Positions 10,425 to 41,264 are shown, counted from the stretch's first letter. The stretch is 64,000 nucleotides of DNA from Trypanosoma brucei (GCA_000002445.1 CM000208.1:2336001-2400000), one strand, 5' to 3'. A program made the numbers and translations. The notes: a model not told the origin generated them from the sequence alone.

Positions 10425-10497
10425 CACCGATTCTTCAACTTCTCGTAGGGCGTGTTTCACTCCAGATCGCCTTAAACTCTTGTTTCCCGGTCCACAG
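10425..10497 (+). promoter_or_regulatory. polypyrimidine tracts plus AG dinucleotides, candidate trans-splice acceptor region for the CDS at 10504
   Basis: ttcttcaacttctcgtag ... ctcttgtttcccggtccacag, ending 7 nt before the ATG. Confidence 0.4.
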
Positions 10498-10503
10498 GTA
10501 AAA

Positions 10504-13437
10504 ATGGAGCAGGCACAGCGGCCGCCGGACAATGTGATGGGTGTTATGCGTTGTGCTGTTGAGCGGGGTCGCAAGTCATTCGTTGCGTATAAGAAACGTT
10601 TTTGGGTTGTTGATGAGACACAAGGCCGTTTAGAGGTGTACAAAAATGATCAAGAGCCGGTACCGCTAGATAGGTTCTGCGCATCAGAGGTGCGTGGAGT
10701 CATTATATCTGGTGACAGACAGAACAAGTTTTATGGCCTTGTACTGCAACTTCGGCGTGGCCAAAACATCAAACTCCGACTTAGCTCTCTGGCGGAACGG
10801 GATAGGTGGTATGCCGCAATCACTCGTCTCATCGAACGATGCTCCACGTACAATCGTGACTATAATCTGTTGCGCGTCGCGCAACGGAGAACGCTGGTGG
10901 CAGGGCGTTTATTAGGGGTGAACATTACTTTGGCCGTTGCACGATTAAGTGATATCCCTGATGATCTTCTTCAGTACCTGGTGGAAGCCGTTGATGTTGC
11001 CATCGACACAATCTCCGCGGCGGTCCATGCATACGGTGGTGATGTGGAGGTGCCACGGCGGTACACGATCACAGTAGAAGCGGGCCAGGATCGTATTGAT
11101 ACGGGCCCACAGTATGACCCAACTACAGGTAGTCTCCTGCTAAACGTGTGGATTTCACGAGATGTAACAGGTAACGTTCGCTTCAATGTTGCGGATTCGG
11201 CGGAAGTGATGAAAATGACGCAGTCACACGTGTGGCGTGAACCGCGGATCGAGGGGTGGATCACAACAAATCCAAGTTGCGTTGCTGTTTGCCGTGAAAT
11301 TGGTGAAATGCTCGGAAGCAGGAACTTTTCATTTTCATTCCAGTGGGGCCAAAACTTACGGGATACGGAGAGGGTTGAACAATATTTGCATCAGTACGTT
11401 CATGAGGATTTTTTGCGTGCAATTCATCGGAATATCGTCGAGGTAGTGGAGGATTTCAGACGCTCTGATACAGACGCTGACGATTCGTGCTATCTCAAGT
11501 ACATTGGGGACTTTGTTTCTGGAATAGCTATTGTTCTGGATGAATCAACTGTAAATGCGGGGAAGCCACCTCTACTGCGTGTAACAACTACGGTTGAGTA
11601 CCAGCGGCGTTGCAGGCACGCAGTGGTGCTGAAGTCGAAATACTTTGAAGTGTACCGGACGCAGCGTGTGCTGACCAAGTCATTGAGGTTGCAACTTGTA
11701 GAAGTTATTCTCCTAGCAGACCTGAGCAAGCGGCTGAGTGACAGTAAAACTGCCCTAACTCAAGCCATTGGAGGCAACGAATGTGTGCGTATTATATGGG
11801 TTAACTTATTTCGCTCGTTTGCAAGCGTTGGCGCTCAGCTACCTCAATTTAAGTTATCTGATGTGGTCACTTCCATCACTAACACTTATTTGACCCGTCT
11901 AGAAAGCCTACAGCAGTTGGGGTCACTTGAGCTACCGTACGCTGGAGTGAAACCGCTTTACGCATCACTTTTTTCCAATGTCACCACTCTTGTCGTTGAT
12001 TTTGTGCCATTTAAGGAGGACGACGTTTCCCAACTGCCGGAGCCAAAGGTTCACGACGGTATATTGACGGATTACATTGTCTGCTGCACAGCCGCTCAAC
12101 AACGTGCTATGATGAATTTCATTTGTTCGCGAAGAGGTGTACCTCAGATTGATCGAGCCTATGTGCTGTTGAATGGTCTTTTTGCTTTTCCTTCGATGCC
12201 CGCAACTACCTTCAAGGAGTGGTGCGAGAAACAAGCATTTAATGGCGTGGAGGGATACAGTGGGGCGAATGACGATGATTCTAGCTCCCGCTCTTCTGGA
12301 GGAAGTGATGACTTGGGCGATGCTGTGGCGTTTGAGCGCAACGCGGAGGCACAAGTGCTCGATCTGCACCGTGTTGTGAGTACAATCTACGACTCGCAAG
12401 GTGCTGCCGTACACCTTAAGATCGGTGCGGATTCTATCCGTGATGCTATCGAAGCCCTCGAACAGGCATTTGACGGACGTCAGATTCGTAAGCACGATTT
12501 GGTGCGTGTACTTACAGCCAATCTACGTCGACTACGGGCTATTTATAGTCATGCTGTTGGAGGTGAAGTGATGACTCGTCTCGACTTAGATGCGGCAGGA
12601 CGGCTTCTTCGTTCTCTCTGTGAATACAAGGAAAGTGAACAAGGCCTTGATGAGTTGCTTCAGCGATGTGCCCAACAACGACAGCAGGCCGTGAGGCTGG
12701 GAAGCAGTGACTCGGTGCCCCAAGAAAGAAGATCGCTGTCCTGCAGCGCATCGGAAAGTATCTACGATTTTCAATGTGTATCGCAAGTGGCGCTAAACTA
12801 TGTTCTACCACGGGAGGTGAAGCTAGCCCGTAAAGCGTGGCGCGTCGGTCTTGTTGCGGGTCTTCAGGATGTTGGAAAAACGCTGATCCTCAACTCTCTT
12901 CACGGTGTCATACAACCGACATTTCCAACAATTGGACTTTCCCAGAGAGTAATCGCTTTTGAGGAGTGGGTGTTTGCGATGCACGAACTCGGTGGTCGAG
13001 AGAGTTTTCGTGAGAACTGGCGCTACTACGTTGAACGCATGGAGGAGGTCGATTTCTTGTTCTTTGTCGTAGACAGTATGAACAAACGCGCCTTCAAATA
13101 TGCCTCCAATTATCTGCGTGAGATTACCAATTATTTCGTGAATACTCCCCTTGTTGTGTTGTTCAACAATGTCCGTGTAGGCGTTAGAGGCGTTTCCTTG
13201 TTGGATCACTTGTCAGGTGCTGTTAAACTGGACAAAATAAAAAAACGGCAGCCAGAGAGATTCATCATCGTTGGGACATGTGATATTACTGTGGTGAGCT
13301 CGTCGCACCGCACAATTCCTCCGACACTTCTTGAAACTATGCAGCGTCTTGGGGAATATCTACGCCAAGTGTCACCACCGGAGCGAACGCCCAGCGAACC
13401 AAAGAAGGGATCTGGAGTTGAATACACAACGACATAG
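10504..13437 (+). CDS. PH-domain protein with C-terminal divergent Arf/Arl-like (pseudo)GTPase domain
   Basis: The ORF-track start at 10480 is TTG; the first ATG is 10504. The N-terminus (VMRCAVERGRKSFVAYKKRFWVVDETQGRLEVYKND...DRWYAAITRLI) looks like a PH domain. The C-terminus aligns to Arf1: GLQDVGKT (P-loop) ... PTIG ... HELGGR (the Arf WDVGGQ, Gln replaced by Arg) ... FVVDS ... VVLFNNVRV (the Arf NKQD replaced by NNVR). Confidence 0.6.
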   Translation: MEQAQRPPDNVMGVMRCAVERGRKSFVAYKKRFWVVDETQGRLEVYKNDQEPVPLDRFCASEVRGVIISGDRQNKFYGLVLQLRRGQNIKLRLSSLAERDRWYAAITRLIERCSTYNRDYNLLRVAQRRTLVAGRLLGVNITLAVARLSDIPDDLLQYLVEAVDVAIDTISAAVHAYGGDVEVPRRYTITVEAGQDRIDTGPQYDPTTGSLLLNVWISRDVTGNVRFNVADSAEVMKMTQSHVWREPRIEGWITTNPSCVAVCREIGEMLGSRNFSFSFQWGQNLRDTERVEQYLHQYVHEDFLRAIHRNIVEVVEDFRRSDTDADDSCYLKYIGDFVSGIAIVLDESTVNAGKPPLLRVTTTVEYQRRCRHAVVLKSKYFEVYRTQRVLTKSLRLQLVEVILLADLSKRLSDSKTALTQAIGGNECVRIIWVNLFRSFASVGAQLPQFKLSDVVTSITNTYLTRLESLQQLGSLELPYAGVKPLYASLFSNVTTLVVDFVPFKEDDVSQLPEPKVHDGILTDYIVCCTAAQQRAMMNFICSRRGVPQIDRAYVLLNGLFAFPSMPATTFKEWCEKQAFNGVEGYSGANDDDSSSRSSGGSDDLGDAVAFERNAEAQVLDLHRVVSTIYDSQGAAVHLKIGADSIRDAIEALEQAFDGRQIRKHDLVRVLTANLRRLRAIYSHAVGGEVMTRLDLDAAGRLLRSLCEYKESEQGLDELLQRCAQQRQQAVRLGSSDSVPQERRSLSCSASESIYDFQCVSQVALNYVLPREVKLARKAWRVGLVAGLQDVGKTLILNSLHGVIQPTFPTIGLSQRVIAFEEWVFAMHELGGRESFRENWRYYVERMEEVDFLFFVVDSMNKRAFKYASNYLREITNYFVNTPLVVLFNNVRVGVRGVSLLDHLSGAVKLDKIKKRQPERFIIVGTCDITVVSSSHRTIPPTLLETMQRLGEYLRQVSPPERTPSEPKKGSGVEYTTT

Positions 13438-16121: not shown

Positions 16122-16665
16122 GATTTTTTTCTTGTAGTCGCACAAGGGTTTCGGACGTACCGCTTGTAAATATATAGGGGGGGGGTGTCCAGTTCTTTTT
16201 TTTTTGAGGGTTCGGCGATTAAAGCTCTCAACGATCCCCTTCCTCCCATTTCGTCATTCGCTTTAATTATTTGGGGGCCGCTGGCTACTCTATAATTCCT
16301 GTTCCTGGTTGTTCTACTGTGGTACCATGACACTTCTTGTAGTGTTTACAGATGAGTCTCATCTATACGCACTGCCGCCATATTTTTCGATCTCTCCCAC
16401 TTTCCCTGTTTTCGCCCACCCTCAAGTCTCTCCTCTCCAAAGACGCATCTATATTTACTCTTCTGTATACGTGTGCACACAATTTTTTACACAACTGAGG
16501 TTAAGGTATTGTTGGATCATTGTGGTGAACAATCCTGACGCGTATCGTTGCGCGACGTGGGAAGAGGTCGTATATATATATATATATACTTGGTGAGTGG
16601 CTGTGTGTCTGTTCGTATACGTTTGCGTGGCGCAGCGTGGTACAAACATATATATATATGCGCTG

Positions 16666-19600
16666 ATGAATAAGCTGCTTATCACGCTACATGGCTGTCA
16701 TATAATGCATTCCCCGGGTCTCTCGACCGTTTCCCCTCGCGTATTAATAGTGGTGGATGGTGTGTACGAGTTCGTGGCTCACGGGAAAGCTAGCACCTTC
16801 ACATCCTACTTCAACGAGCTTTTCACAGTTGGTTACATTGACCGCTTAACAGTAGTTGAAGTACTTGTATACAATTCGTCAACCACGGGATGTGGAGACT
16901 ACAACGAACAACAGTTGCTTGGGACATGTCGATTATCCACCGTGTGGTTGTTCCAGGGGAAGACACCTAAGCGGCGACGCCATGTTTTGGCGAACGATGC
17001 CGGCATAGCCGGGACAGTTGAGCTCACTTTGATGCTTGACACCTCTAGGGAAGGTAAAGGCAGCTTTGAAGAAGAGACGAACGAGTGGTGTGCCTCGCGT
17101 TTGGTTCGTTTTCTGATGCACAATGATAAGGGCCGTTTGAGGGATGTAGACCTTTTGCTTTCCACAATGGAGACTGATGGAGCACCACTGAGGCCTCTAG
17201 CATCACCCCCAAAATGCGCAGCTGCTTCCTCTGAGAGTTCGCGAAGCTCTTGCGCGGCTTTTGAAGAATTAATGAGGAACCTGTGCGAGGAGTATCACTG
17301 TGAAGAACCTCCGCAGTGTCGGGTCCGGGTTGCTTTGGAAGGTTGTACCTCTCTTGAAGAAAGTGACAAGCACCACTCATCAAATGTAATTGTGGTGTTT
17401 CGGAGTACAGCCGAGGAGTTCGTGTCGCCGTCAAGGCCGTACACGTCTAACCCTGTCTGGGGATCAACGTTGGGTACGGCCACTTTCGACGTCTGTAACC
17501 CGGAGGACTTTGTGCTTGATGTTATTGTGTACCGCATCACTTCGTCATCGGGTTATGTTGAAGTTGGCCGGGCGCGAATACGTGTTTACATGCTCACAAC
17601 GGAATACTCTTCCAAAAGACAATATTTTATTTTCCGCCATGATAGTTACATAACGCCATGTGTTACAGGCGCCGTCCATATCACAATAAAACCGTTGGGG
17701 TTCGGACTGTCACCGAAAGATGCGGGTGGAACCGCCGACTTGTTCCATGCTCGGTTGAATCGTTTTTTTTACCGCTACGATCGTCGGCGACTGCAAGAGG
17801 TGGATATTATTCTCTACTCTCGCAGGAATAAACTGGATGAATTGATGGACGAATTGGAAGTTTACTACGGTCGTGAACCTGGCACGGCAGTACTGTGTTT
17901 GACTGTGGAGGAGGTGCAATCGTTATTGCATGTTGCATCTACGGACCTCGATGGTGAGGATGTAGTAGTTGTGGTCACAATGGGTAGCCAATCGAACCGT
18001 ACAGACGCTAAGCGAGTGACTGCGAACTCTCGAATAGTTTTTGGCAATGCTTTTCAGATTGACGTTGTTCGAGAAACTGATATGATACGGTTTGAAGTAG
18101 TGAAAGCAGGATGTGAGGACGTTGTGTACGGAAGCGTGGATTTTACTTGCCTCAGAATTCAGAAAGGTGTTGAGAATACCCGGACGCTGTATTTGGTAGG
18201 AGCTGCGGGCACAGAGAAGGCATTTCTAAGTGGAACAATAACAGTTACTTTTTTCAGTGAAAATTTGGGCCAGTCGTACACTGCTGATACAGAATCAGAG
18301 TGCATGTATGCAGGGCGTCTGCGTCGCTATGCGTGTCAGCACGCACCAGAAAAACTGCATCTTGTGGACGTGGCGGTTGCTACTGTTTTCGATACTGAGG
18401 GATTCATGAAGGAAATGAGTCGAGATTATGGCGAAGAGAATCCAACTTATGTGCTGTACATGACAGTATTGGGGTGTCGAAAGCTGAGGAAGCGTTTTGG
18501 GTTTACAATGAGTGCGTACGTTGTCGCTCGTATGGGCGTGGACCGCTACGAGACACGTGTAGTGAGAAATAGTACGAAGCCGGACTACTTTGAATTCTTT
18601 GAGTTTTTTATAGATCAGTTCGCGCACACGGAACTCACCCTAGTAGTTATGGATCAGTACGACATGGGTACCGACAAAGAGGTTGGCCGGACTGTCATTC
18701 CCTTGGAAAATGCAATCCCCGAGCATCAGTACAACCTCTGGTTGCCTCTCATGAAGGATGGGTGCTCCAACTGTGGGTTTGTGGGTGTGAAGTTTGTGGT
18801 AAAGGATCTTCAACTTCGCGACTCGTTGTGTGACCACGTCAAAGCAGGAACCTTCTCAGAGCGTTGCGGCCCTAGACAAGAGGAGCTTACATCGCCAAAT
18901 GAGTCACGACGGGCAACAGGTGTTACCAATTTTTCCAACGCGTTATACCACTTGTTTGGTGGGTGGGGCAAGAGAATATTCCGTGCGCCTCGGTGGCAGC
19001 CGTGGCGGGACGAGTCCAGCAAGGGGTTCTCCAAGCTCAAGGTATCTGAAGGGGTTTCGGGCTGTGAGCATGGATCAGATCACCCAGTGCTTGCGAACAT
19101 CATTGACGACGGCATCTACTCTGCAAGTGAGTTCTTGCGACCCAGAACAGCGAGAACGGCACCCAAGTTATTATCAAATCTTCTTGTTAAACAGCGTGCT
19201 CGTCACACCCTCGTCCCGCAAACACCTAACTCTACCACAGGAAGGCGGTTTTTACATGTACACCTCCACTACTGTGACGACTTGGAAGAGAGGCGTTTAG
19301 TTCCTCCAAGCCCATGTGTGATGCTCGCAACGCTCAGGACAACATACATTTCGAGAACAGCGTTCGAAACTTGTTCACCCCGATATGACGATGTGTTTCA
19401 TTTTCCCATCACTTGCCCAGATGAGGACTTTCTTACCATAACAGTCATGACAGACACGCCGTACGGTAGAAAAACTCTTGGGTTCTGTATGCTCTCCATA
19501 AAAAATGTTTGCTATGGCATGCCTCAAACGCGTTACGTAGCGCTGGTGGTCGCCCCTCATGGATCTGTGGCGCAACAACGTGGTGTGGTGTGTCTCTCCC

Positions 19601-22179
19601 TCCTTAGTGAGAATTTCGGTGTTGCCGTACCGCCACCCCTGGGGAGAGAGTGCAGCTTTCGGCAATGGTTGCAAAGCATCCTCGTGAAGTATGCGCCGAC
19701 GGAGCTGCATCGGCTCGAATGGTACGTAGGCGAGTATTCTGTCAAAGACAACAGAGAGGTGGAAGGCTTCTTCGTTACGAACACATACAAGAGGAGGGGG
19801 AAGGAGGAAGTCAATGTCCATATTTCCGTGGAAACGGTATCAAACTTGCATTGCGATGGTTTGGTCGTTGCCTCTGGTTCGTGTTCGATGACGGCGGAGT
19901 TAGGGGGAAGGACGGTCTGCCGTATCCCCGCTGTGGAGGGAAGCAACGGCTTCTTCAACATTTCAGGGGAATTCGATGTTGTCATCCCTCAACCACTAAC
20001 GCAGACACTGCGCCTTCTTGTGAGCGTCAAGGCAGGCTCAAAACGTAGCCACGGAGAATGTGTCATATCATTCGCGGATGTGCACCGCAAGGCAGCTCGT
20101 GGGCAAGCTCACTACATTGTGGAAGGCCCAGGACTCCCGTCGGCCTCCCCCATTGGTTACGTAACCGTCTCAATGTCCTGTGACCGTTGCGGCAGAGTGG
20201 GGACGCCATCAGATTATGCAGATAGGAGTCTATATACGAGGATGCGTGATTACTATTACTATTACATTCGTGAACGACTTCACGTGGTGAACGTCACTTA
20301 CAGCAAGAAAGTTGATGTGGACAACCATCTGAGAAAGCTGGTGGAGGTGTATGGCCCAGAACCCAGCACCCGTCAACTCCATCTAGAAATTGTGCAGTGT
20401 AATTTTCCAGGCATTGCCGACGGTACTCCCTATTTTGCTCTCGAAGTCGGACTCCTGCAGTATAGGACAGTACCTGTCGCCGACAACCCTGACTCCCATT
20501 TCAAAGGGTCATTTGACATTCATCTTGGATTACCCGAAAAGGATGAACTAAACCTGATAGTGTTTATGAGTCGTGCGTGTGAGTTGCTTGATGTGGAGGT
20601 TGGACGAACCTTGATACCCCTCAGGAACGTCGTGTGCGGGAAGAAAATGCTTTTCCGTCTCCCACTCGTGCGACAGGCTCAGACAAAATATGCTAAAATC
20701 CATGGCTCCGTTGAAGTTTTGCTTTACACCAATGATTTTGGTCTCCCGTCCGAGCAGCAGAGGCACGCTCTGCATCACAGCCTTTGCGATCGAGTACAGT
20801 GGGAGGTTTCTCATTCCAACCCAAAGGACATTCATCGGATCCCCAATTTTCTCGCGGGAATACAGGTGCAAAGCGGGTGGGTTAGCGGTCAAATGGAATG
20901 TAGATCGTTACCTCGGCCTGGCTCAGCGTCAGATAACGCAATCCGTGTTCTCTTTCTTGGGTTTCAATGCCTTCCTGAAAAAGGTGTCTACATAAAAGTG
21001 AAGTTGGATGGCTGTAAGAAGCTTCTACGCACAGGCGACCTGTCGGGGAAGCGGCTTGCTTGCGTCAATGAAGAATTCACCATTGAAGGTTCTGCTGTAC
21101 TGAAAAACACAGTTTTTACGTTGAAGTTAGCAGAAAGTAAGACAAATGAATCGCGCGCGTTATGTTACTGCGACTTCACTCTAGCAGATTGTCCCCCTGG
21201 ATGTGTGTCTAGAAAGTGGCTGCGTCTCTTCGACGACAGGGGCAGGTCTATGGGCCAACTAGGCATTCAGGTGGACGCACCAGCTTCCTCAAGCTCATTT
21301 TTCTCTCGCAGCAGCAGCAACCGGTCCCATCACGACGTGGAGCGAGTCACGGATGATGTCGTGTCACTTCTACAAAAGTACTTGCCGCAAGGGCTGCGGC
21401 GACTCGACCTGATAATTAACCATTCCGATAATGTGAGTGCCGTTCATCGTGTGCTTCGCAAGGAACTGGCACCCAAAGTGCAAGCGACAATATACTGCCA
21501 GGTTCAGCAAATCAGATTGCGAACTCCAGCAAGGATATACCCCCGAGTCGAGTTTTCTTCAGCTGACGAGGTTCAATACGTAACGGAGCGCACATACGGG
21601 GAGTGTATGGTGGACTCAAATACGCCATCCCGAAAGAGAGGGGCCGTTTACCTCCACTTTTCTTCAGTCCGTTTGGATGTGAACGGGGCAGATGCGCTGC
21701 GGATTTCTGTTCATGATGGTGAGGCGAGAGAGGGGTGTGAGAAGTTAGGGAGTGTGGTGCTTTCGTTGCGAGCACTTCTAACCCCGACACTGTACGGCAC
21801 AAATGAGATATTGAGGGCGCCGCTTGTCAAACTGTGGCGTACCGGGATTAAAACACGGGCAGTCGTGGCTGGAACCATAACCTTCCACCTTAGTATCCCT
21901 ATTTTTGAGCGGTACCCAGCGGCGCTATGCCTCTCCGAGATCTTTCCGTGCGCTGTGGACCGAGATGTGATACGATGTTATTTCAACAAAATATCTTCAG
22001 TGCTGCGGTGCCACGATACGGGTTCACTCGTGGACATCCACCGCAAGGTGTTTGAGGAGCTTGTCGTGAAACCAAATGGGTCGGTTGAGCTGCGCAACTT
22101 CCTCCACCAATTAGCGGAACGGTGGGGCGTGGACGTGAGTTCTCTTGACGCCACTTCCCCCGACTGGTCGTTTTGTTGA
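16666..22179 (+). CDS. giant multi-module protein (about 1837 aa) built from repeated C2-like beta segment plus helical module; paralog of 23669..27214
   Basis: The ORF-track start at 16597 is GTG and runs through a (TA)n tract; the first ATG is 16666 (the next is 16705). At least 6-7 copies of a helical module recur, for example SENFGVAVPPPLGRECSFRQWLQSILVKYAPTELHRLEWYVGEY, TNDFGLPSEQQRHALHHSLC, RRRLQEVDIILYSRRNKLDELMDELEVYYGREPG and RERLHVVNVTYSKKVDVDNHLRKLVEVYGPEPS. Each follows a beta-rich segment with the VEVGRTxIPL-type signature seen in C2 domains. Confidence 0.7.
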   Translation: MNKLLITLHGCHIMHSPGLSTVSPRVLIVVDGVYEFVAHGKASTFTSYFNELFTVGYIDRLTVVEVLVYNSSTTGCGDYNEQQLLGTCRLSTVWLFQGKTPKRRRHVLANDAGIAGTVELTLMLDTSREGKGSFEEETNEWCASRLVRFLMHNDKGRLRDVDLLLSTMETDGAPLRPLASPPKCAAASSESSRSSCAAFEELMRNLCEEYHCEEPPQCRVRVALEGCTSLEESDKHHSSNVIVVFRSTAEEFVSPSRPYTSNPVWGSTLGTATFDVCNPEDFVLDVIVYRITSSSGYVEVGRARIRVYMLTTEYSSKRQYFIFRHDSYITPCVTGAVHITIKPLGFGLSPKDAGGTADLFHARLNRFFYRYDRRRLQEVDIILYSRRNKLDELMDELEVYYGREPGTAVLCLTVEEVQSLLHVASTDLDGEDVVVVVTMGSQSNRTDAKRVTANSRIVFGNAFQIDVVRETDMIRFEVVKAGCEDVVYGSVDFTCLRIQKGVENTRTLYLVGAAGTEKAFLSGTITVTFFSENLGQSYTADTESECMYAGRLRRYACQHAPEKLHLVDVAVATVFDTEGFMKEMSRDYGEENPTYVLYMTVLGCRKLRKRFGFTMSAYVVARMGVDRYETRVVRNSTKPDYFEFFEFFIDQFAHTELTLVVMDQYDMGTDKEVGRTVIPLENAIPEHQYNLWLPLMKDGCSNCGFVGVKFVVKDLQLRDSLCDHVKAGTFSERCGPRQEELTSPNESRRATGVTNFSNALYHLFGGWGKRIFRAPRWQPWRDESSKGFSKLKVSEGVSGCEHGSDHPVLANIIDDGIYSASEFLRPRTARTAPKLLSNLLVKQRARHTLVPQTPNSTTGRRFLHVHLHYCDDLEERRLVPPSPCVMLATLRTTYISRTAFETCSPRYDDVFHFPITCPDEDFLTITVMTDTPYGRKTLGFCMLSIKNVCYGMPQTRYVALVVAPHGSVAQQRGVVCLSLLSENFGVAVPPPLGRECSFRQWLQSILVKYAPTELHRLEWYVGEYSVKDNREVEGFFVTNTYKRRGKEEVNVHISVETVSNLHCDGLVVASGSCSMTAELGGRTVCRIPAVEGSNGFFNISGEFDVVIPQPLTQTLRLLVSVKAGSKRSHGECVISFADVHRKAARGQAHYIVEGPGLPSASPIGYVTVSMSCDRCGRVGTPSDYADRSLYTRMRDYYYYYIRERLHVVNVTYSKKVDVDNHLRKLVEVYGPEPSTRQLHLEIVQCNFPGIADGTPYFALEVGLLQYRTVPVADNPDSHFKGSFDIHLGLPEKDELNLIVFMSRACELLDVEVGRTLIPLRNVVCGKKMLFRLPLVRQAQTKYAKIHGSVEVLLYTNDFGLPSEQQRHALHHSLCDRVQWEVSHSNPKDIHRIPNFLAGIQVQSGWVSGQMECRSLPRPGSASDNAIRVLFLGFQCLPEKGVYIKVKLDGCKKLLRTGDLSGKRLACVNEEFTIEGSAVLKNTVFTLKLAESKTNESRALCYCDFTLADCPPGCVSRKWLRLFDDRGRSMGQLGIQVDAPASSSSFFSRSSSNRSHHDVERVTDDVVSLLQKYLPQGLRRLDLIINHSDNVSAVHRVLRKELAPKVQATIYCQVQQIRLRTPARIYPRVEFSSADEVQYVTERTYGECMVDSNTPSRKRGAVYLHFSSVRLDVNGADALRISVHDGEAREGCEKLGSVVLSLRALLTPTLYGTNEILRAPLVKLWRTGIKTRAVVAGTITFHLSIPIFERYPAALCLSEIFPCAVDRDVIRCYFNKISSVLRCHDTGSLVDIHRKVFEELVVKPNGSVELRNFLHQLAERWGVDVSSLDATSPDWSFC

Positions 22180-23089
22180 TGGCGCCGCGCTTTACTGTGA
22201 AAGACTGTTAAGTACATATGTATGTTTATATTGTTTGCAGGGCTCGTGGAACGGTTCGGATGTAAGTGTTTGTGATGTGGTAGTCGTTCGTTTCTGTCAT
22301 GATGTTTAGTAGCGTAAAATAAAGTATTCGTTTATTTATTTGTTGTCCCTTTTTTTAAAAAAAAAATTGTGTAATACCCCTTCTCGCAAAAGTAACGGAA
22401 GAACGGGGCGGTTCTTCCTGAAAGACTGTGAAAATAAAAACAGTACGATACACCGCTGGTGTACAGGGGGAAAGGGGGAAAAAAGGAAAGTCAAGTATGG
22501 TATAGTATTTATTTGTTTGTAGTCTGCTGGCCCCGTGTATTATATGGCAAAACTGAATATAGTGGAACCGTACGTACGGCACTTCGTTCGGTGCCTTTTT
22601 TTTTTTGCGCTGTTTCGTTTATTTGATGCCCTTCATGACTTCTCTTTCCCCCACTGAATCTTACGGTTTTGGCATTACTTACTCGATGGTGGTAACGGGT
22701 TCCGTCATCTTGTCTTTTTATATTTTAAACCTCTTGTTAGCCCGGTTTTCGTTTTTTTCTTTTCTTAAAAAAAAAAAATAATCTAACTCCTGTTTGTGTT
22801 TTTTGGAACAGATCGATGTATGTGGTTGAGGTGTAGAGAGGACAACAGGCACAACAACTTGTGCGATATTACGTGTCGCATGTTAGTTTCCTACCCTTTT
22901 TGTTGCTGTTGTTGTCCTTCACTTCTGTCAGCGGCTTACTTGTTCGTAAAAGTGTCATGGGAGAGGAGAGAGTTCGATTGGAACACTTCCTGATGTGGAA
23001 AACGATTAAGTCTTTTTTCCCCCTTCTGTTCGCTGTGGCTTATTGGTAGACCCCTCATGTGAGCACTTTTATTCTGCTCCCCCTTTGTA

Positions 23090-23230
23090 CTGTTTTCCGT
23101 CTGTGCGAAAACCACTCGTGCCTCTTCTTGTATACTTCGTCATGATACCTTCTTTCTATTTTCTCCTTCTCATTCTTATCATCAATTTACCGTTTCCTTT
23201 CCCCCCTTTTTTTTCGCACTGCCCCCAAAG
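23090..23230 (+). promoter_or_regulatory. unusually long (about 140 nt) polypyrimidine tract upstream of the CDS at 23669
   Basis: cgtgcctcttcttgtatacttcgtcatgataccttctttctattttctccttctcattcttatcatcaatttaccgtttcctttcccccctttttttt. It would give a 5'UTR of about 400 nt containing a purine-rich element (23340-23470). Confidence 0.4.
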
Positions 23231-23668
23231 TGTTCATTTAAACCCCCACTATCACAGTGGTTGTGAACTGAGTGTGTAGAGTGCAGGAGGCGGATAACAA
23301 CAAAAGGGCTCCATCACTGACACTACGCTACCCGCCACCTGTGTTTTGAACGGTACGCACACACATAAGCACACAAGCAGAAAAAGAAAACGAAAAAAGA
23401 AAGGGAGACATTAGGGGTTTCAAAAGGGAGAGTAATTCGAAGAGCAGAGAAGGAAGGGGAACATCACGGCACATATTCCTAGAAGGGCGATTGTTAATAA
23501 TTTGCTCGGACGAGGGAGGGCTACGAGAGGAAGTGAGTGAGACGAACAGAAGTCACATTCTCACTGATAGTGTTGTGCGAGGGTTTTTGTGTTTCAAGAC
23601 AACGAGAATATTGTCCATTTAAGCAGGGTAACACTTCGTCACCCTCGTAGAAATATTTGCAAGTAACC

Positions 23669-26600
23669 ATGAAGGACAGTTATCGCGATCCCAACAGGGC
23701 AAAGAGCTACGCGTCGTCCGCCGATGCCTTTTCTTCTAGTGCGCAACGTTCATGTGCTGTCGGTAGTGCCACCTGGAACGGCTCGCCCTGCGATAATTCG
23801 CCCAGTAGCACATTTATAAGTAGCACCGGAAGAAACACTGGGAAGTTGCATAAGGTGGGGTTTCGGAAAAGAGAAACGACTGCCCCACGTGGTGAAACGC
23901 ATCCGCCGAGGGTCCCAAGAAAGCAGACGCCACCGACTGCGAGGAGCAGGCCGGTGCCCCCTTTGGCGTTGACGCAAACAGGTGCAAGAACAGAACGCGG
24001 TCACAGAATGGATTTGAGGGTACGTGTCGAGGGCGTCAAAAAATTGCTTCCCCCTAATAGCGCATCGAAAGCCCTACCCTCAACCTTCATTATGGTTCAA
24101 ACAGCAACAGGGCGTGGCAAAACGCCGGTAATTTTCAACAACGCTAATCCTCCTTTTAACGACGAGTTCGTGTTTACCGTTAGAGATCCCAAATTAGATG
24201 AAATTACGGTTGTATTAGTCTCGCACACACCATCTGGAAACAAAAAATTGGGACAGTGCGTTCTTTCTCCTGGAAATCTTGTGTGTGGCGAAGAGAAGAG
24301 GCGATGGGTTTCTATTGTCCGCCATCCTGGAACAGATCAAGCTCGCGACTACGCTCCCATGCTACTTAGTATGTATACTGAAGACTTCGGCCTTCGGTGT
24401 GGACCATCAGAAGCGAAAGAAAGTGAATTCCGCGAAAAGCTTCGTGCGCTTCTTAAAAACAACGCACCACGGGAGCTCCACCGTCTCGAGTGGTATGTGG
24501 GAAGTTGCGTAGGTGACTATGATGGTGCTTTTTCTCAGCTGTGCTCAAAGTATCGCAAGTCAAAGGGCACACCTGCGGCGTTTCAGCTTGTCATTAACGC
24601 AGTCTCTGACTTGACCGATGGTAATGGATCACCAAGCGCTTGTGAGACGTGCTGCGTGAAAATTTACGCGGGTCGGGTGAAACGGGTCACCCCAATGGCC
24701 TTGTATCGATCCTCGGCAGTATTTAACGAAGTCTTCAACCTGTCATTAGATGACCCCTTGTCGTCTGGAATAACTCTCTGCGTCTGTTCGCCACGCGGTA
24801 AGATTGGTGAATGCGTTGTCTCTCTGAGAGGGATCCAGAAGGGCGTCGCGAAGGAGCGCACAAATTCTCTTGTTTATGCTGCTGGGACCGGGGATGCAAG
24901 TCTCTGTGGAACCATTTCCTTTACCCTTTACTCACAGACGTTCGGAGTGGAAAATCCCATTGAAGAGGCAGAAGAGAACGCCAGGCGTACTCGGCTGCAG
25001 AACTATCTGTGGAATTATCTCCGAGATGACCTACATCGTCTAGACCCCATTCTATACTCCATCACTGACGTGGATTCCTTCATGAGTGTGTGGACGCGCA
25101 CGTACGGTCCGGAGCCCCGACAACACCTTCTACGGCTCCGAATTAAAAATTTGAGGCTCCTGACCAAACTGAAGAGTCCCGAAGAGTTTACGGTCGTATT
25201 ACGTACAGGACCAAATGCATATCGAACTTCCTGTGTTCGCTACTCACAAGACTTCAGATTCTGTGATGAATTGGTGGTCAGTGTGTGCACTCCATCCGCC
25301 GCCGAGTTCACTTTTATTGTGGTGAAAACATCGGACGTACACGAGGTAGAGATGGGTCGGGCCACCGTGTCCTTTGCAGATATTCCGCAGAGCTCTGTAT
25401 TCAAACGTGATATAATCATCTATGAGGACGCCTTACAGGTCGGCTCCAAAGACTTTGGTACGCTTTTTATTGAGGGGATTACGAACGACTTTGGTCTGCC
25501 GTCGGAAACCTTAACTCCTGAAAGGAGAGAATACTACAGACGACGTGTCGCATCGATTTTGTCCCGCTACAAACCGACTGAGGTATACCGTTGTGACTAC
25601 CTTCTTGGCACCCACTCGGGAATGGAGGAGCAGCTTGTGAGGCGTTTATCAGAGGAGTACGGCCCCGAAACCGGTAACGCGCACGTCAATATCCAAATTT
25701 TGGCAATTAATGACTTCATGCTCTCCTCTCCCTGCTACGTTAAGGTATACGTGGATGACGTTCAGGTACTTAGAACAAAGAGCCACCGCACAGCCCTGAA
25801 TATGCAGTTTGATATATCCCTGAACAACTCCGCAACGCTGCAGATAGAGAATCCCCTCCGCTCGCTACTGAGGTTTGAGTTGATGGAGCCTCGGAGGTTT
25901 CTGCGATCCCGGGTTGTGGGCGTGGCAGAGTTAAGCCTGGTCAAGATGGTACCGAATGAGAAGAATGTGTACCGGCTTCCAGTGTTTAACGCTGAGCGAA
26001 ACGGAGAGGTTGGAACTCTGAGTGTGGAAATAGAATCACCAAGTCTGAGGCACGACGTGTCAGCCATTTTCGACACTCCCCGCGAAGAAGATGACGCCGA
26101 GCTATTCGAAAATGTAATGAAAGATGTAACAACTCTGGTAAGCAAGTACTGCCCTCAGAACTTGCCCCATGTCCAGCCGATGGTGGCCAAGGCAGCGTCA
26201 TTGAGGGATGTCCACCGCGAGCTTAGGGACAAGTTCACACCAAAGCGGGTTGCTTTCACTTTTTACGTACATATTGACAAGCTGGACCTATCGAACCGCG
26301 AGGACATTGAGGCGTATGACGAGGGTCTTATTTCTGTCGAGGCTTACTTCATGAACGAGCGTGTTGTGCAGCCAATGAAGGTAAGTGATGTAAGCAAAGC
26401 AAGGGCGAGTAAGTTGTTTCCCGAAATTCGTTTCGATATCGTTCACCCACACTCATCAGAGCCTGACTGTAGCTTGCCCATACTTGAGATCGTGATGCAC
26501 AAAAAGAACTATAGTACCTTCAAACCCCTTCTAGCTGTTACGAGGCATGGCACTGCTGCTGCAGCGAAACCTCTGAACGTACAAACAACAGAAATGGGCC

Positions 26601-27214
26601 GTGTGGTTCTCTCGGCGCGGGCCCTTCTAACAGAGTGCATGTACTCCCTTGGAGAACCGGTTACTGTAGGTCTTGTCTCTTCAGGGGAACGCGCTCCACA
26701 GGGAGGTACCGTGTTTGGGGACATCGAAAGCTGTCAACGTGCCTACATTGGCGACCTAACGTTGCGCGTGACTGTTCCTTCATTTGAAACCATACCGCGA
26801 TGCTTACAGTTTAGCTCTCACGTCACACGAGATTTTCAACAGGATTACGTCCGTTATCACGCTGACCGAATCTTCAGTCTGTACCGAGCTCACGATCCAT
26901 GGAAGCTGCGTGAATTTTACTACTTGCTCTTCGAGAGGGATGTGGCTTTGGGCAAGTGGCCTCGATCACTACATAATTGGTTGGTAAATTGTATCAAACT
27001 GTATGGACCAGAGGCCCCTGGTACCTATGGACCGCCTCCCAAGCTTCGTTTGGGTTTGAAGGAGTGGGATCAGCAACGAGTCAATAGAACGACGGCGAGT
27101 ACTGCGTGCACATCAAGCGGGTATAACACAGCTCGAGGAAGCAGCTCCGCATTTCCTTCAAACGCATTCAGCGGCAGCGCCAGGCGTTCCCGGAACGGCG
27201 ATCATGGACAGTAG
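23669..27214 (+). CDS. multi-module protein (about 1181 aa), paralog of 16666..22179; Ser/Pro/Arg-rich N-terminus
   Basis: The ORF-track start at 23657 is TTG; the first ATG is 23669. It shares motifs with the upstream gene: NAPRELHRLEWYVGS versus APTELHRLEWYVGEY; TNDFGLPSE identical in both; VVLSARALLT versus VVLSLRALLT; LHRLDPILYS...YGPEP versus LQEVDIILYS...YGREPG. Confidence 0.7.
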   Translation: MKDSYRDPNRAKSYASSADAFSSSAQRSCAVGSATWNGSPCDNSPSSTFISSTGRNTGKLHKVGFRKRETTAPRGETHPPRVPRKQTPPTARSRPVPPLALTQTGARTERGHRMDLRVRVEGVKKLLPPNSASKALPSTFIMVQTATGRGKTPVIFNNANPPFNDEFVFTVRDPKLDEITVVLVSHTPSGNKKLGQCVLSPGNLVCGEEKRRWVSIVRHPGTDQARDYAPMLLSMYTEDFGLRCGPSEAKESEFREKLRALLKNNAPRELHRLEWYVGSCVGDYDGAFSQLCSKYRKSKGTPAAFQLVINAVSDLTDGNGSPSACETCCVKIYAGRVKRVTPMALYRSSAVFNEVFNLSLDDPLSSGITLCVCSPRGKIGECVVSLRGIQKGVAKERTNSLVYAAGTGDASLCGTISFTLYSQTFGVENPIEEAEENARRTRLQNYLWNYLRDDLHRLDPILYSITDVDSFMSVWTRTYGPEPRQHLLRLRIKNLRLLTKLKSPEEFTVVLRTGPNAYRTSCVRYSQDFRFCDELVVSVCTPSAAEFTFIVVKTSDVHEVEMGRATVSFADIPQSSVFKRDIIIYEDALQVGSKDFGTLFIEGITNDFGLPSETLTPERREYYRRRVASILSRYKPTEVYRCDYLLGTHSGMEEQLVRRLSEEYGPETGNAHVNIQILAINDFMLSSPCYVKVYVDDVQVLRTKSHRTALNMQFDISLNNSATLQIENPLRSLLRFELMEPRRFLRSRVVGVAELSLVKMVPNEKNVYRLPVFNAERNGEVGTLSVEIESPSLRHDVSAIFDTPREEDDAELFENVMKDVTTLVSKYCPQNLPHVQPMVAKAASLRDVHRELRDKFTPKRVAFTFYVHIDKLDLSNREDIEAYDEGLISVEAYFMNERVVQPMKVSDVSKARASKLFPEIRFDIVHPHSSEPDCSLPILEIVMHKKNYSTFKPLLAVTRHGTAAAAKPLNVQTTEMGRVVLSARALLTECMYSLGEPVTVGLVSSGERAPQGGTVFGDIESCQRAYIGDLTLRVTVPSFETIPRCLQFSSHVTRDFQQDYVRYHADRIFSLYRAHDPWKLREFYYLLFERDVALGKWPRSLHNWLVNCIKLYGPEAPGTYGPPPKLRLGLKEWDQQRVNRTTASTACTSSGYNTARGSSSAFPSNAFSGSARRSRNGDHGQ

Positions 27215-28846: not shown

Positions 28847-30559
28847 ATGTATCACTACGAGTACGATGACGACCACTCAACCAACCTCTCGCAAGCAATT
28901 AACGCCAAGTTGATTACGCGTAGGGGTATAACAACAGACAGCCCAGATCCCATTACTCCGGTTTTTTCGTCGACCGCGCCAACTCGCTCATCAACTGGAC
29001 TAACGACTGAATGGATACGACATCAAAAGCTTAGCGGAAGGGCTGTACCCCCGACCCTTGATACTCTAAAGGGGACAGGTAGTGGAAGGAAATACAAGAG
29101 TGTCACAAATTCCCAAGAAAACAATGTGGACCCAAACAGCATTAACCGCGGCACTTTGCTAGTTAACTCATCCTACTCGGCACCTTCACCAAGATATAAC
29201 CACGTCTCTTCAGTGGTAAAAAAGCTGATAGAAGGGAGAATAACGCCCCAAGAGGCGCGTCGTGCAAGTTCCTCTCGTCGTGGCAGCTCACGAACCACCC
29301 GACTGGTTGCCAGTAGCCGATTCGCTCCTGCCGATAGGCCATCAAGCGCCCCGAAACGTCTTCCGATGGGCAGCGGTAGGACTGGTGGGCTGCTGCCACG
29401 TCTAAGAATATCGTCAACACCACACATACCCGTCCGCACGCAGCAATGGATCCCTTCAAACTCAGCAAAACCAGCGACGGCGGAATGCCAAAAAAACATA
29501 TCGCCACGAGGTCCGGCAACCACGCAGTCATCGGGCAGCTCACGAAGGTTAAACATGTATCAAAGGGTGCCACTATCACGACAATGCGACTCTTTTCCGA
29601 GGAAACCAACAACTGTGGAGGAAAAACCGAAGCCCCCTCAGCCATTGTTCAGTCGGGTTCCGAGATGTGCGGCGGATATTCCAGATCATCGGAAGCCCTC
29701 TCCACGACACGATGTACAGTCAAGAAGGCCGTACGTGCCGCAGTCAGGACGTGAGGTACCGAAAGCGCATAAGACACCACTCTCCAGGGCATCCAGTTCG
29801 CCGAAATACAACAGTGCCCGGAGGAGGTACGTGCAGGACAAACAAACCAACGAAACATCTACTATCAGCGGAAGGCAACGAGTTCCTGTGAGTGCAGTAG
29901 ATGTAGGAAGCAGGGAGAAGGCTAACGTCAGCGAAAGGCAACGAGTTCCTGTAAGTGCAGTAGATGTAGGAAGCAGGGAGAAGGCTAACGTCACTGAAAG
30001 GCAACGAGTTCCTGTGAGTGCAGTAGATGTAGGAAGCAGGGAGAAGGCTAACGTCACTGAAAGGCAACGAGTTCCTGTAAGTGCAGTAGATGTAGGAAGC
30101 AGGGAGAAGGCTAACGTCACTGAAAGGCAACGAGTTCCTGTGAGTGCAGTAGATGTAGGAAGCAGGGAGAAGGCTAACGTCAGCGAAAGGCAACGAGTTC
30201 CTGTAAGTGCAGTAGATGTAGGAAGCAGGGAGAAGGCTAACGTCACTGAAAGGCAACGAGTTCCTGTGAGTGCAGTAGATGTAGGAAGTAAGGAGCAAGA
30301 AGACGGACGAGTCACCGCAATTTCTTCGGACTCGAGAGGCGCATTAAGTCAGACAAAGGCGATGGAGACACAAAAAGTCGTCGATCCGTTGTCAACAAAA
30401 GATATAATTTCCCACGACGCGGCTGGTCGTCCCAAACATAAATCTCTTAATGGTGGTTTAGTGATACCACAGGTGGAGGGGATTAAGTCATTACTGCTTT
30501 TTGATATCAAACCACCGAAACTGAGCGAGACTGGCGCTGTTGCCGCCACTGTCGGTTGA
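28847..30559 (+). CDS. basic Ser/Pro/Arg-rich protein containing 7 tandem 21-aa repeats (ERQRVPVSAVDVGSREKANVS/T)
   Basis: ATG at 28847. The composition looks intrinsically disordered. A 63-nt tandem array lies in frame at 29866-30306. The minus-strand ORFs 29686..30315 and 29744..30298 are mirror artefacts of that array. Confidence 0.6.
   Translation: MYHYEYDDDHSTNLSQAINAKLITRRGITTDSPDPITPVFSSTAPTRSSTGLTTEWIRHQKLSGRAVPPTLDTLKGTGSGRKYKSVTNSQENNVDPNSINRGTLLVNSSYSAPSPRYNHVSSVVKKLIEGRITPQEARRASSSRRGSSRTTRLVASSRFAPADRPSSAPKRLPMGSGRTGGLLPRLRISSTPHIPVRTQQWIPSNSAKPATAECQKNISPRGPATTQSSGSSRRLNMYQRVPLSRQCDSFPRKPTTVEEKPKPPQPLFSRVPRCAADIPDHRKPSPRHDVQSRRPYVPQSGREVPKAHKTPLSRASSSPKYNSARRRYVQDKQTNETSTISGRQRVPVSAVDVGSREKANVSERQRVPVSAVDVGSREKANVTERQRVPVSAVDVGSREKANVTERQRVPVSAVDVGSREKANVTERQRVPVSAVDVGSREKANVSERQRVPVSAVDVGSREKANVTERQRVPVSAVDVGSKEQEDGRVTAISSDSRGALSQTKAMETQKVVDPLSTKDIISHDAAGRPKHKSLNGGLVIPQVEGIKSLLLFDIKPPKLSETGAVAATVG
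29866..30306 (+). repeat. 63-nt tandem repeat, 7 copies (last degenerate), near-identical, in frame within CDS 28847..30559
   Basis: Unit cagcgaaaggcaacgagttcctgt[g/a]agtgcagtagatgtaggaagcagggagaaggctaacgt begins at 29866, 29929, 29992, 30055, 30118, 30181 and 30244. The synonymous gtg/gta position alternates strictly between units, and agc/act recurs at units 1 and 5. Confidence 0.9.
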
Positions 30560-41235: not shown

Positions 41236-41264
41236 TGTGTGTGTGTGTGCATGTATGTATGTGT
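41236..41264. repeat. (TG)n/(ATGT)n microsatellite
   Basis: tgtgtgtgtgtgtgcatgtatgtatgtg seen directly in the long spacer. Confidence 0.85.

What the first reader, a model, noticed from the sequence alone, without database searches (positions are those of the whole stretch)
16597..27214. Adjacent pair of giant paralogous genes built from a repeated, apparently uncharacterised two-part module
The neighbouring + strand genes 16666..22179 and 23669..27214 are clear paralogs. Shared strings include TNDFGLPSE (identical), AP(T/R)ELHRLEWYVG, VVLS(L/A)RALLT and L(Q/H)...D.ILYS...YG(R/P)EP. Within each protein the same architecture recurs at least 5-7 times. Each copy is a beta-rich stretch of roughly 100-130 aa with a C2-domain-like signature (VEVGRTLIPLRNV, EVGRTVIPLENAI, VEMGRATVSFADIP, GECVVSLRGIQKG). 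It ends in an acidic [ED]-[ND]-F-G-[LV]-(P) motif (SENFG, SENLG, TNDFGLP, TEDFGL, SQTFGV). A helical module of about 60-70 aa follows, with consensus R..L...L..Y.P.ELHRL(E/D)...(G)....L......YGPEP. I cannot assign this module to a named domain family, and it may be kinetoplastid-specific. The genes look like an old tandem duplication that has diverged. Multi-C2 scaffolds of this kind are typical of ciliary, basal-body or membrane-contact machinery.
Basis: partly seen in the sequence, partly recalled or inferred. Interest (0 to 1): 0.75.

Follow-up and report, generated by a model that had tools for sequence, protein, structure and literature searches.

The report
Paired trypanosome C2-rod genes (FAZ22 locus)
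Two neighbouring Trypanosoma brucei genes (one is the known flagellum-attachment-zone protein FAZ22) are ancient duplicates built from 5 and 9 copies of a rigid unit, a C2 beta-sandwich plus a small three-helix domain, and that helical domain belongs to an unnamed repeat family also found in many proteins that have no C2 domain.

Summary
The window is T. brucei TREU927 chromosome 10. Gene A (16666..22179, 1837 aa, XP_823192) and gene B (23669..27214, 1181 aa, XP_823193) are colinear paralogs (BLASTP 5e-65). Both are chains of units of about 185 aa, each a C2 domain followed by a three-helix domain: 9 units in A and 5 in B. Repeat significance holds in profile-profile tests against reversed controls.

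The interpretation needs three corrections.
- Gene B is not uncharacterised. Its 132.6 kDa mass, three Pfam C2 matches and position match Tb927.10.9700, which is FAZ22, scored "whole FAZ" by TrypTag and first found by CIF1 proximity labelling.
- The helical module has no Pfam or PDB match, but it is not confined to this family. It is homologous (hhalign 99%, E 5e-18) to a free-standing repeat of about 48 aa (RL..FY.KY.P.K...VD..L.KY.G.E..L...L..KYGPEP). That repeat occurs in long tandem arrays in at least 50 other protein clusters, some of which also carry a PH domain.
- None of the 14 C2 domains keeps the canonical Ca2+-binding aspartates.

The tandem pair is syntenic in Novymonas, so it predates the Trypanosoma/Leishmaniinae split. 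Most likely these proteins are Ca2+-independent rod-like scaffolds of the flagellum attachment zone. This is a new variant of a known kind and of moderate interest.

The parts
16666..22179 (+). Gene A: 1837-aa, 206-kDa multi-C2 protein (XP_823192 / UniProt Q38A06). Presumably Tb927.10.9690. Its localisation is not known to me.
   Evidence: Exact match to the deposited protein. Pfam C2 2.3e-36. Mass. No literature hit for Tb927.10.9690.
23669..27214 (+). Gene B: 1181-aa, 132.55-kDa protein (XP_823193 / Q38A05) = Tb927.10.9700 = FAZ22.
   Evidence: Exact match. Mass 132.55 kDa against 132.58 kDa and 'C2 domain x3' for Tb927.10.9700 in Table S1 of PMC10953051. Named FAZ22 / LmxM.36.4330. TrypTag 'Whole FAZ'.
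16666..17331 (+). A unit 1: C2-1 (aa 1-130) plus divergent helical module H1 with an insertion (aa 131-222).
   Evidence: hhalign A_C1 to A_C5 92%. A_L1 to A_L2 96%.
17317..17886 (+). A unit 2: C2-2 (aa 218-345) plus H2 (aa 346-407, ...YYGREPGT).
   Evidence: Local C2 HMM 102 bits. An HMM built only from repeats of C2-less proteins scores H2 at 28.5 bits.
17887..18450 (+). A unit 3: C2-3 (aa 408-533) plus H3 (aa 534-595).
   Evidence: Free-repeat HMM 21.5 bits.
18451..19245 (+). A C2-4 (aa 596-715; best Pfam C2 stretch 597-695), followed by a poorly conserved basic (+8) insert of 145 aa (aa 716-860) in place of a helical module.
   Evidence: Conservation profile. Charge.
19246..19815 (+). A unit 5: C2-5 plus H5 (APTELHRLEWYVG). 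Paralogous to B unit 1.
   Evidence: hhalign A_C5 to B_C1 100%. A_L5 to B_L1 99%.
19816..20376 (+). A unit 6: C2-6 plus H6 (...VYGPEPSTR). Paralogous to B unit 2.
   Evidence: A_C6 to B_C2 99%. A_L6 to B_L2 98%. Free-repeat HMM 14.9 bits.
20377..20940 (+). A unit 7: C2-7 (VEVGRTLIPLRNV, TNDFGLPSE) plus degenerate H7. Paralogous to B unit 3.
   Evidence: A_C7 to B_C3 98%. A_L7 to B_L3 84%.
20941..21483 (+). A unit 8: divergent C2-8 plus H8. Paralogous to B unit 4.
   Evidence: A_C8 to B_C4 88%. A_L8 to B_L4 98%.
21484..22176 (+). A unit 9: divergent C2-9 with an insert (VVLSLRALLT) plus terminal helical module H9. Paralogous to B unit 5.
   Evidence: A_C9 to B_C5 98%. A_L9 to B_L5 99%.
23669..24001 (+). 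B N-terminal disordered, basic (net +12), Pro/Ser/Thr/Arg-rich region (aa 1-111).
   Evidence: pLDDT below 30. Poorly conserved. Charge.
24002..24568 (+). B unit 1: C2-1 (strands 114-237) plus H1 (helices 248-295).
   Evidence: AF2 model. Pfam best C2 stretch 116-215.
24569..25123 (+). B unit 2: C2-2 (303-422) plus H2 (helices 433-450, 452-464, 468-479; YGPEP). This unit was modelled on its own.
   Evidence: AF2 with a 33-unit alignment: pLDDT 95.2, pTM 0.89.
25124..25675 (+). B unit 3: C2-3 (486-605; VEMGRATVSFADIP, TNDFGLPSE) plus H3 (617-664; EEYGPETG).
   Evidence: Free-repeat HMM 32.6 bits.
25676..26248 (+). B unit 4: C2-4 (671-789) plus H4 (808-856).
26249..27043 (+). B unit 5: C2-5 with disordered inserts (861-1035; VVLSARALLT) plus H5 (1058-1112; KLYGPEA).
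27044..27211 (+). B C-terminal tail (aa 1126-1181, net +5): one predicted helix (1130-1148), then disordered.

Best explanation
Genes A and B are an ancient tandem pair encoding rod-like cytoskeletal scaffold proteins of the trypanosome flagellum attachment zone (FAZ).

Architecture (shown). Each protein is a head-to-tail chain of rigid units of about 185 aa. A unit is a type-II-topology C2 beta-sandwich whose last strand ends in the [ED]-[ND]-F-G motif. About ten residues later comes a compact three-helix domain that ends in YGPEP and runs almost directly into the first strand of the next C2. B has five such units between a basic disordered N-terminus and a short tail. A has four units, a disordered hinge of about 145 aa, then five units colinear with those of B. 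The helical domain is a captured copy of an older, free-standing 'YGPEP' three-helix repeat.

Localisation (from the literature). B is FAZ22 and lies along the whole FAZ.

Mechanism (inferred).
- The three-helix domains pack on the C2 domains and fix the spacing and orientation of successive C2 domains. The result would be a stiff multivalent rod rather than beads on a flexible string.
- The C2 domains lack the Ca2+-ligand aspartates and are close to electrically neutral. They probably act as Ca2+-independent docking surfaces for FAZ partners or membrane, not as Ca2+ sensors.
- The basic disordered N-terminus of B may provide an electrostatic anchor to microtubules or acidic lipid.
- A probably works in the same or a neighbouring cytoskeletal structure.
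For: Identity and paralogy.

Unit architecture.
- The AF2 model of full-length B shows five beta-sandwich plus three-helix units.
- A single unit models at pLDDT 95.2 and pTM 0.89, so the helices are placed confidently against the C2.
- Unit length is constant at 181-193 aa, with no long linkers between units.

Ca2+ ligands are missing in all 14 C2 domains when aligned to Syt1, PKC-alpha and cPLA2 C2 domains.

No transmembrane segment: maximum 19-aa hydropathy 1.33 and 1.55; TMHMM 'no' in PMC10953051 Table S1.

FAZ localisation of Tb927.10.9700 / FAZ22: TrypTag source data 'Whole FAZ'; Table S1 and text of PMC10953051, citing Zhou et al. 2018 CIF1 BioID; PMC10295485.

A family of about 900 aa with an N-terminal region whose only Pfam matches are coiled-coil families and a C-terminal C2-plus-helix unit also matches the profile across C2-2 and the start of H2. 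This is the architecture and size reported for the essential FAZ-filament protein CC2D (105 kDa).

Age of the pair: SET / A / B synteny in Novymonas, with the downstream gene matching B at 3e-109.
Against: - There are no functional data for either gene in what I could read. The primary FAZ22 paper (Zhou et al. 2018) is not held.
- The localisation of gene A is unknown to me.
- Rigidity between units is inferred. The full-length model has pTM of only 0.42, so inter-unit geometry is not established.
- Loss of Ca2+ ligands rests on a MAFFT alignment with reference sequences recalled from memory.
- Neutral net charge does not exclude local basic lipid-binding patches.
- L. mexicana FAZ22 could not be tagged, so conservation of the localisation is untested.
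Confidence: 0.6

Rival explanations
1. Ferlin-like Ca2+-regulated membrane fusion or repair proteins: a multi-C2 protein that bridges and fuses membranes in response to Ca2+.
Confidence: 0.05
2. Membrane-contact tether or lipid-transfer protein of the extended-synaptotagmin, tricalbin or MCTP type, acting at the FAZ-associated ER.
For: E-Syt2 C2A-C2B and plant or T. brucei E-Syt C2 domains are among the best structural matches. The FAZ includes a specialised ER domain (PMC10953051).
Against: There is no SMP domain, no transmembrane hairpin and no other Pfam domain besides C2. The matches cover single C2 domains only (TMq at most 0.56).
Confidence: 0.1
3. Peripheral membrane-to-filament linker. 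The C2 arrays bind the inner leaflet of the cell-body membrane directly, independently of Ca2+, and staple it to the FAZ filament. This is a variant of the main explanation in which the C2 ligands are lipids rather than proteins.
For: C2 domains are classically lipid-binding. The free-standing YGPEP repeat co-occurs with PH domains, another lipid-binding module (P0047, P0064, P0069). The termini of B are basic. The protein localises to the FAZ.
Confidence: 0.2
4. The recurring motifs are chance or low-complexity similarity, not true internal repeats.
For: The last two units and A-H1 and A-H7 are too divergent to score on their own.
Against: hhalign probabilities reach 99% against at most 31% for reversed controls. 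An HMM built only from unrelated C2-less proteins scores the linkers up to 32.6 bits against 4.5 bits for the best of 400 shuffles. The multi-unit alignment is nearly gap-free. The AF2 models are confident.
Confidence: 0.01

Closest known systems
FAZ22 (Tb927.10.9700; L. mexicana LmxM.36.4330)
   Same: Gene B is this protein. It has the same mass and the same count of three Pfam C2 matches, and it lies two gene numbers before REAP-1 (Tb927.10.9720).
   Different: In the papers I could read, FAZ22 appears only as a FAZ-localised protein with 'C2 domain x3'. They do not mention the five-unit C2 plus three-helix architecture, the neighbouring paralog, or the loss of Ca2+ ligands.
CC2D (Tb927.4.2080), the coiled-coil and C2-domain FAZ-filament protein
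   Same: It is a C2-containing FAZ protein. Its depletion blocks FAZ assembly and detaches the flagellum (PMC4827413). A protein family with this architecture and size (P0123, 918 aa, 105.7 kDa) carries a C-terminal C2 followed by '...TDDFG...' and two helices ('APERLHAVDVYV'). That region matches the FAZ22 profile over C2-2 and the start of H2.
   Different: It has a single C2 unit behind a long N-terminal region (coiled coil by its Pfam matches and heptad-like sequence), not a chain of units. I could not confirm by name that P0123 is CC2D.
Ferlins (otoferlin, myoferlin, dysferlin)
   Same: They are large proteins with 5-7 C2 domains and some helical inter-C2 elements. They are the top full-length fold matches.
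   Different: Ferlins have a C-terminal membrane anchor, FerI/FerA/FerB/DysF elements and Ca2+-binding C2 domains. None of these is present here. The global TM-score is 0.15.
Centriolar and ciliary Ca2+-independent C2 arrays (CEP120, C2CD3, RPGRIP1/1L)
   Different: No specific sequence relationship was found. Those proteins do not have a YGPEP three-helix domain after each C2. The localisation is FAZ, not centriole.
Unnamed free-standing 'YGPEP' three-helix repeat (consensus R.RL.RFY.KY.P.KL..VD..L.KY.G.EEEL...LV.KYGPEP)
   Same: It is homologous to the helical module of A and B. The alignment is gap-free, hhalign gives 99.0% and E 4.7e-18, and HMM hits are reciprocal.
   Different: In those proteins the repeat stands alone in arrays of 3 to 21 copies separated by low-complexity spacers, sometimes with a C-terminal PH domain, and without C2 domains. 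In A and B each copy is fused to and packed against a C2 domain, and the central 'KY.G.EE' segment is replaced.

Membership tests
C2 domain (Pfam PF00168) | Sequence match to the family model above the curated threshold | tested here: met
   A scores 124.6 bits and B 86 bits against a cut-off of 22.
C2 domain (Pfam PF00168) | Eight-stranded beta-sandwich fold | tested here: met
Ca2+-binding C2 domains (synaptotagmin / PKC / cPLA2 type) | Cluster of about five Asp/Asn ligands in loops 1 and 3 | tested here: not met
   None of the 14 C2 domains has the full set. Only A C2-3 keeps the loop-1 'DPY' Asp, and only A C2-4 has loop-3 Asp residues.
Ferlins | C-terminal transmembrane anchor | tested here: not met
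   Maximum 19-aa Kyte-Doolittle hydropathy is 1.33 for A and 1.55 for B, in beta-strand sequence. TMHMM 'no' for Tb927.10.9700.
Ferlins | FerI / FerA / FerB / DysF elements between the C2 domains | tested here: not met
   No such Pfam family matches at E<=1.
Ferlins | Overall arrangement of the C2 domains | tested here: inconclusive
   Foldseek E is 6e-24 but TM is 0.15. The query's own inter-domain geometry is low-confidence (pTM 0.42).
Extended synaptotagmins / tricalbins | SMP lipid-transfer domain and N-terminal membrane hairpin | tested here: not met
   Only C2 is found by Pfam. There is no hydrophobic segment.
FAZ proteins (operational class) | Localisation along the flagellum attachment zone (gene B) | not testable with these tools
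   Literature only: Tb927.10.9700 is 'Whole FAZ' in TrypTag source data and is listed as FAZ22.
FAZ proteins (operational class) | Localisation along the flagellum attachment zone (gene A) | not tested
   Tb927.10.9690 does not occur in the main text of any held paper or in the TrypTag supplements as stored, some of which are truncated.
Unnamed YGPEP three-helix repeat | Unit of 46-50 aa with conserved R, L, [FY], Y.P, L..[VL]D, L, YGPE; significant reciprocal profile matches | tested here: met
   The kinetoplastid-only HMM finds 273 near-full-length copies at or below 1e-3 in 50 hit proteins outside the close ortholog set, most of them without any C2 match. An HMM from 40 repeats of C2-less proteins hits A H2, H3, H6 and B H1, H2, H3 at 7.9-32.6 bits against a shuffled maximum of 4.5. 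hhalign gives 99.0%.
Unnamed YGPEP three-helix repeat | Three-helix fold | tested here: met
   Met for the copies in B. Not modelled for the free-standing copies.
CC2D family | Long N-terminal coiled coil followed by a single C-terminal C2 | tested here: not met
   Neither A nor B has a long helical or coiled-coil region outside the units. They share the C2-plus-helix unit, not the architecture.

The most novel reading that the evidence does not exclude
The three-helix 'YGPEP' module is an undescribed and widespread eukaryotic domain family. It is absent from Pfam-A (2025 copy), from PDB sequences and from the searchable literature, and it travels with lipid-binding domains (PH in the free arrays, C2 here). 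In kinetoplastids it was captured once as a rigid spacer. That capture created a lineage-specific family of C2-rod cytoskeletal proteins: FAZ22, its 206-kDa neighbour, a chromosome-11 paralog, and probably the C-terminus of CC2D. These proteins would build or measure the flagellum attachment zone.
Probability: 0.4. Interest if true: 0.6.

Novelty: new variant of a known kind. Interest (0 to 1): 0.4.

Why it matters
The FAZ sets trypanosome cell shape and the position of cytokinesis, yet most of its roughly 60 listed components are known only as names with a localisation.

- Seeing FAZ22 and its neighbour as chains of a defined, confidently modelled C2 plus three-helix unit gives a concrete structural hypothesis: a stiff multivalent rod that does not respond to Ca2+.
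- It also gives clean domain boundaries for truncation, binding and structural experiments.
- It ties FAZ22 to a second, untested gene next door, to a chromosome-11 paralog, and probably to the essential protein CC2D through one shared unit.
- Independently, the helical unit exposes a repeat family with no Pfam model. It occurs in many clusters of C2-less proteins, which is worth a domain-database entry and a first structure.

None of this overturns current views. It refines the annotation of a known class.

Tried and rejected
- The first representative search with alignment A1 failed because the profile exceeded 1200 positions. I repeated it with the trimmed alignment A2.
- The word-indexed search with the helical profile returned only 15 short, mostly unnamed proteins and gave no taxonomy.
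- Cluster look-ups gave no organism names for the free-repeat proteins. Contig look-ups for two of them were uninformative. Their taxonomic origin therefore remains unresolved. Only indirect hints (Dictyostelium-like poly-N/Q tracts in P0054, environmental sources) suggest non-kinetoplastids.
- Literature searches found nothing relevant for accession numbers, motif strings or Tb927.10.9690/9710.
- The primary FAZ22 paper (PMC6200942) is not held, and PMC12047770 supplements do not mention the genes.
- My first guess of gene numbers (A = 9700, B = 9710) was wrong. The molecular weight corrected it.
- The apparent Pfam 'hits' of the repeat arrays (Myb, Surp, PA28_N and others) have no qualifying stretch. 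I rejected them as summed noise over many repeats.
- No other ORF in the window carries either module.

Full report
**Source and identity of the genes**

The window is Trypanosoma brucei brucei TREU927 chromosome 10. The products of 16666..22179 (gene A, 1837 aa) and 23669..27214 (gene B, 1181 aa) are identical to XP_823192/Q38A06 and XP_823193/Q38A05. Both are annotated 'hypothetical protein, conserved / C2 domain-containing'. The longer GTG and TTG ORFs arise from the bacterial start-codon rule.

Neighbouring genes fix the locus:
- The ORF at 28847..30559 carries seven 21-aa repeats and is REAP-1, Tb927.10.9720.
- An M3 peptidase ORF lies at 55020..57047, where Tb927.10.9820 should fall. A paper on mitochondrial intermediate peptidase mentions that ID, but I did not open it to confirm.
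- An alternative oxidase gene and a gamma-tubulin-complex gene lie between them.

**Check of the observation**

- A and B are colinear paralogs. BLASTP gives 5e-65 and 24% identity, with A 881-1821 aligned to B 137-1113.
- Pfam finds only C2, at 2.3e-36 for A and 2.4e-24 for B.
- I sliced ortholog alignments (six species per family) at each putative module and compared the slices by hhalign.
  - Helical linkers A_L1, L2, L3, L5, L6 and B_L1, L2, L3 form one cluster at 90% probability or more. Reversed controls reach at most 31%.
  - C2 slices A_C1 to A_C7 and B_C1 to B_C3 cluster in the same way.
  - The last two units are divergent but pair strongly between paralogs: A8/B4 at 88-98% and A9/B5 at 98-99%.
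- Thirty-three complete units from ten positions align end to end at 181-193 aa.

The repeats are therefore real. A has 9 C2 and 8 helical modules, with a 145-aa poorly conserved insert after C2-4. B has 5 of each.

**Structure**

- AlphaFold2 on full-length B with 13 homologs gives mean pLDDT 69 and pTM 0.42. It shows five beta-sandwiches, each followed by a short helical module (three helices after C2-2, C2-3 and C2-4), between disordered termini.
- One unit (B 300-487), modelled with the 33-unit alignment, reaches pLDDT 95.2 and pTM 0.89. It has eight strands, then helices 134-151, 153-165 and 169-180. The C2 and helical parts are therefore predicted as one rigid body.
- Foldseek never exceeds TMq 0.56.
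- Foldseek of the full model ranks ferlins first, but with TM of only 0.15.

No solved structure contains the two-part unit.

**The helical module is not private to this family**

- A profile of the five-unit region, searched against 1.84 billion representative proteins, gave 874 hits at E<=1e-3.
- Using HMMs built only from the kinetoplastid units, I classified the top 150 hits. They fall into three groups:
  - alternating C2-helix proteins, which are orthologs and paralogs;
  - pure C2 arrays;
  - at least 50 clusters made of 3 to 21 tandem copies of the helical module alone.
- The named proteins in the first group are all kinetoplastid: T. vivax, a 2560-aa T. congolense chromosome-11 protein, and a Bodo saltans protein.
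- Examples of the third group are P0047 (21 copies) and P0054 (11 copies).
- The free copies align without gaps to the A and B linkers. The consensus is R.RL.RFY.KY.P.KL..VD..L.KY.G.EEEL...LV.KYGPEP.
- In the reciprocal test, an HMM built from 40 repeats of proteins with no C2 match scores A-H2, H3, H6 and B-H1, H2, H3 at 7.9-32.6 bits. The best of 400 shuffles scores 4.5 bits. hhalign between the two profiles gives 99.0% and E 4.7e-18.
- The repeat has no Pfam family, no PDB sequence relative and no trace in the searchable literature.
- Three of the free arrays end in a PH domain.
- I could not establish the organisms of the free-array proteins.

**What is already known**

- Table S1 of PMC10953051 lists Tb927.10.9700 as a 'Flagellum attachment zone protein' of 132.58 kDa, with no transmembrane segment, 'C2 domain x3' and ortholog LmxM.36.4330, citing Zhou et al. 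2018.
- The text of that paper names it FAZ22.
- Gene B computes to 132.55 kDa and has three Pfam C2 stretches. Gene A is 206 kDa. B is therefore FAZ22, and A is presumably Tb927.10.9690.
- TrypTag source data classify Tb927.10.9700 as 'Whole FAZ'.
- LmxM.36.4330 co-purified with LmxFused in one experiment and could not be tagged in L. mexicana.
- I found nothing on gene A.

**Age of the pair**

- T. theileri orthologs carry adjacent locus tags.
- In Novymonas esmeraldas the order is SET-domain gene, A ortholog (2193 aa), then a 1559-aa gene that matches B at 3e-109. In the T. brucei window the SET-domain gene likewise lies just upstream of A.
- The duplication therefore predates the Trypanosoma/Leishmaniinae split.
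- Units A5 to A9 correspond one-to-one with B1 to B5. The four N-terminal units of A are additional.

**Function**

- None of the 14 C2 domains keeps the canonical Ca2+-ligand aspartates (reference sequences from memory).
- Net charge per C2 domain ranges from -6 to +5. The N-terminal 111 residues of B are disordered with net charge +12. Neither protein has a hydrophobic anchor.
- A family of about 900 aa combines an N-terminal region whose only Pfam matches are coiled-coil families with a C-terminal C2, then '...TDDFG...' and two helices. It matches the profile across C2-2 and the start of H2. This is the architecture and size reported for CC2D, the FAZ-filament protein whose loss blocks FAZ assembly.
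- From this I infer that A and B are Ca2+-independent, rod-like multivalent scaffolds of the FAZ or cortical cytoskeleton, in which the three-helix domains act as fixed spacers between C2 docking surfaces.
- The unit structure and the homologies are shown. The FAZ location of B comes from the literature. Rigidity between units, the ligands of the C2 domains and the role of A are inferred.

**Rivals**

- A ferlin-like Ca2+ fusion role and an E-Syt-like tether role each fail defining features: a membrane anchor, Fer or SMP domains, and Ca2+ ligands.
- A direct lipid-stapling variant remains open.
- Chance similarity is excluded.

**Verdict**

The finding is a new variant of a known kind: a named FAZ C2 protein and its paralog, with a previously undescribed unit architecture and an unnamed helical domain family that extends well beyond these proteins. 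Interest is moderate.

Noticed in passing
window 28847..30559 (+): This is REAP-1 (Tb927.10.9720), with seven tandem 21-aa repeats (ERQRVPVSAVDVGSREKANV[TS]). An RNA-editing review lists it as a mitochondrial RNA-binding factor. TrypTag source data, however, place Tb927.10.9720 in the 'Anterior tip' class of cell-cortex proteins. The two do not obviously agree.
   Followed up: partly
P0123, P0137, P0157, P0138, P0144, P0148, P0142 (representative hits): This family has an N-terminal region whose only Pfam matches are coiled-coil families and a single C-terminal FAZ22-type C2, followed by 'TDDFG' and two helices. P0123 (918 aa, 105.7 kDa) fits the published description of the essential FAZ protein CC2D (105 kDa). 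If it is CC2D, then CC2D and FAZ22 share one specific unit. I could not confirm the identity by name.
   Followed up: partly
P0043 (T. congolense TCIL3000_11_11660, 2560 aa), P0051 (Bodo saltans CUG88199, 1118 aa): These are further proteins with the C2-helix unit architecture: a third trypanosome paralog on chromosome 11, and a member in the free-living kinetoplastid Bodo saltans.
   Followed up: no
P0047, P0064, P0069 (representative hits): Arrays of the free YGPEP repeat end in a PH domain (E 1e-10 to 1e-12), and in P0047 a long coiled-coil-like tail follows. P0054 has Dictyostelium-like poly-N and poly-Q spacers.
   Followed up: partly
P0184 (T. grayi DQ04_00711110, 75 aa): This small trypanosome protein consists of little more than one YGPEP helical module plus the start of a second. 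Kinetoplastids therefore also have free-standing copies.
   Followed up: no
window 10480..13437 (+): A 985-aa protein with an N-terminal PH-like match (23.2 bits, just under Pfam's 25.1-bit cut-off) and a C-terminal Arf-family GTPase domain, which is an unusual combination.
   Followed up: no
window 3129..7349 (+) and 786..1811 (+): A large ORF (1406 aa) and a 341-aa ORF have no Pfam match at all.
   Followed up: no
window 42001..44000: This is the lowest G+C in the window (0.406 against about 0.48-0.50). It covers the long intergenic stretch (40659..43515) upstream of the alternative-oxidase-family gene at 43516..44571 and the start of that gene.
   Followed up: no
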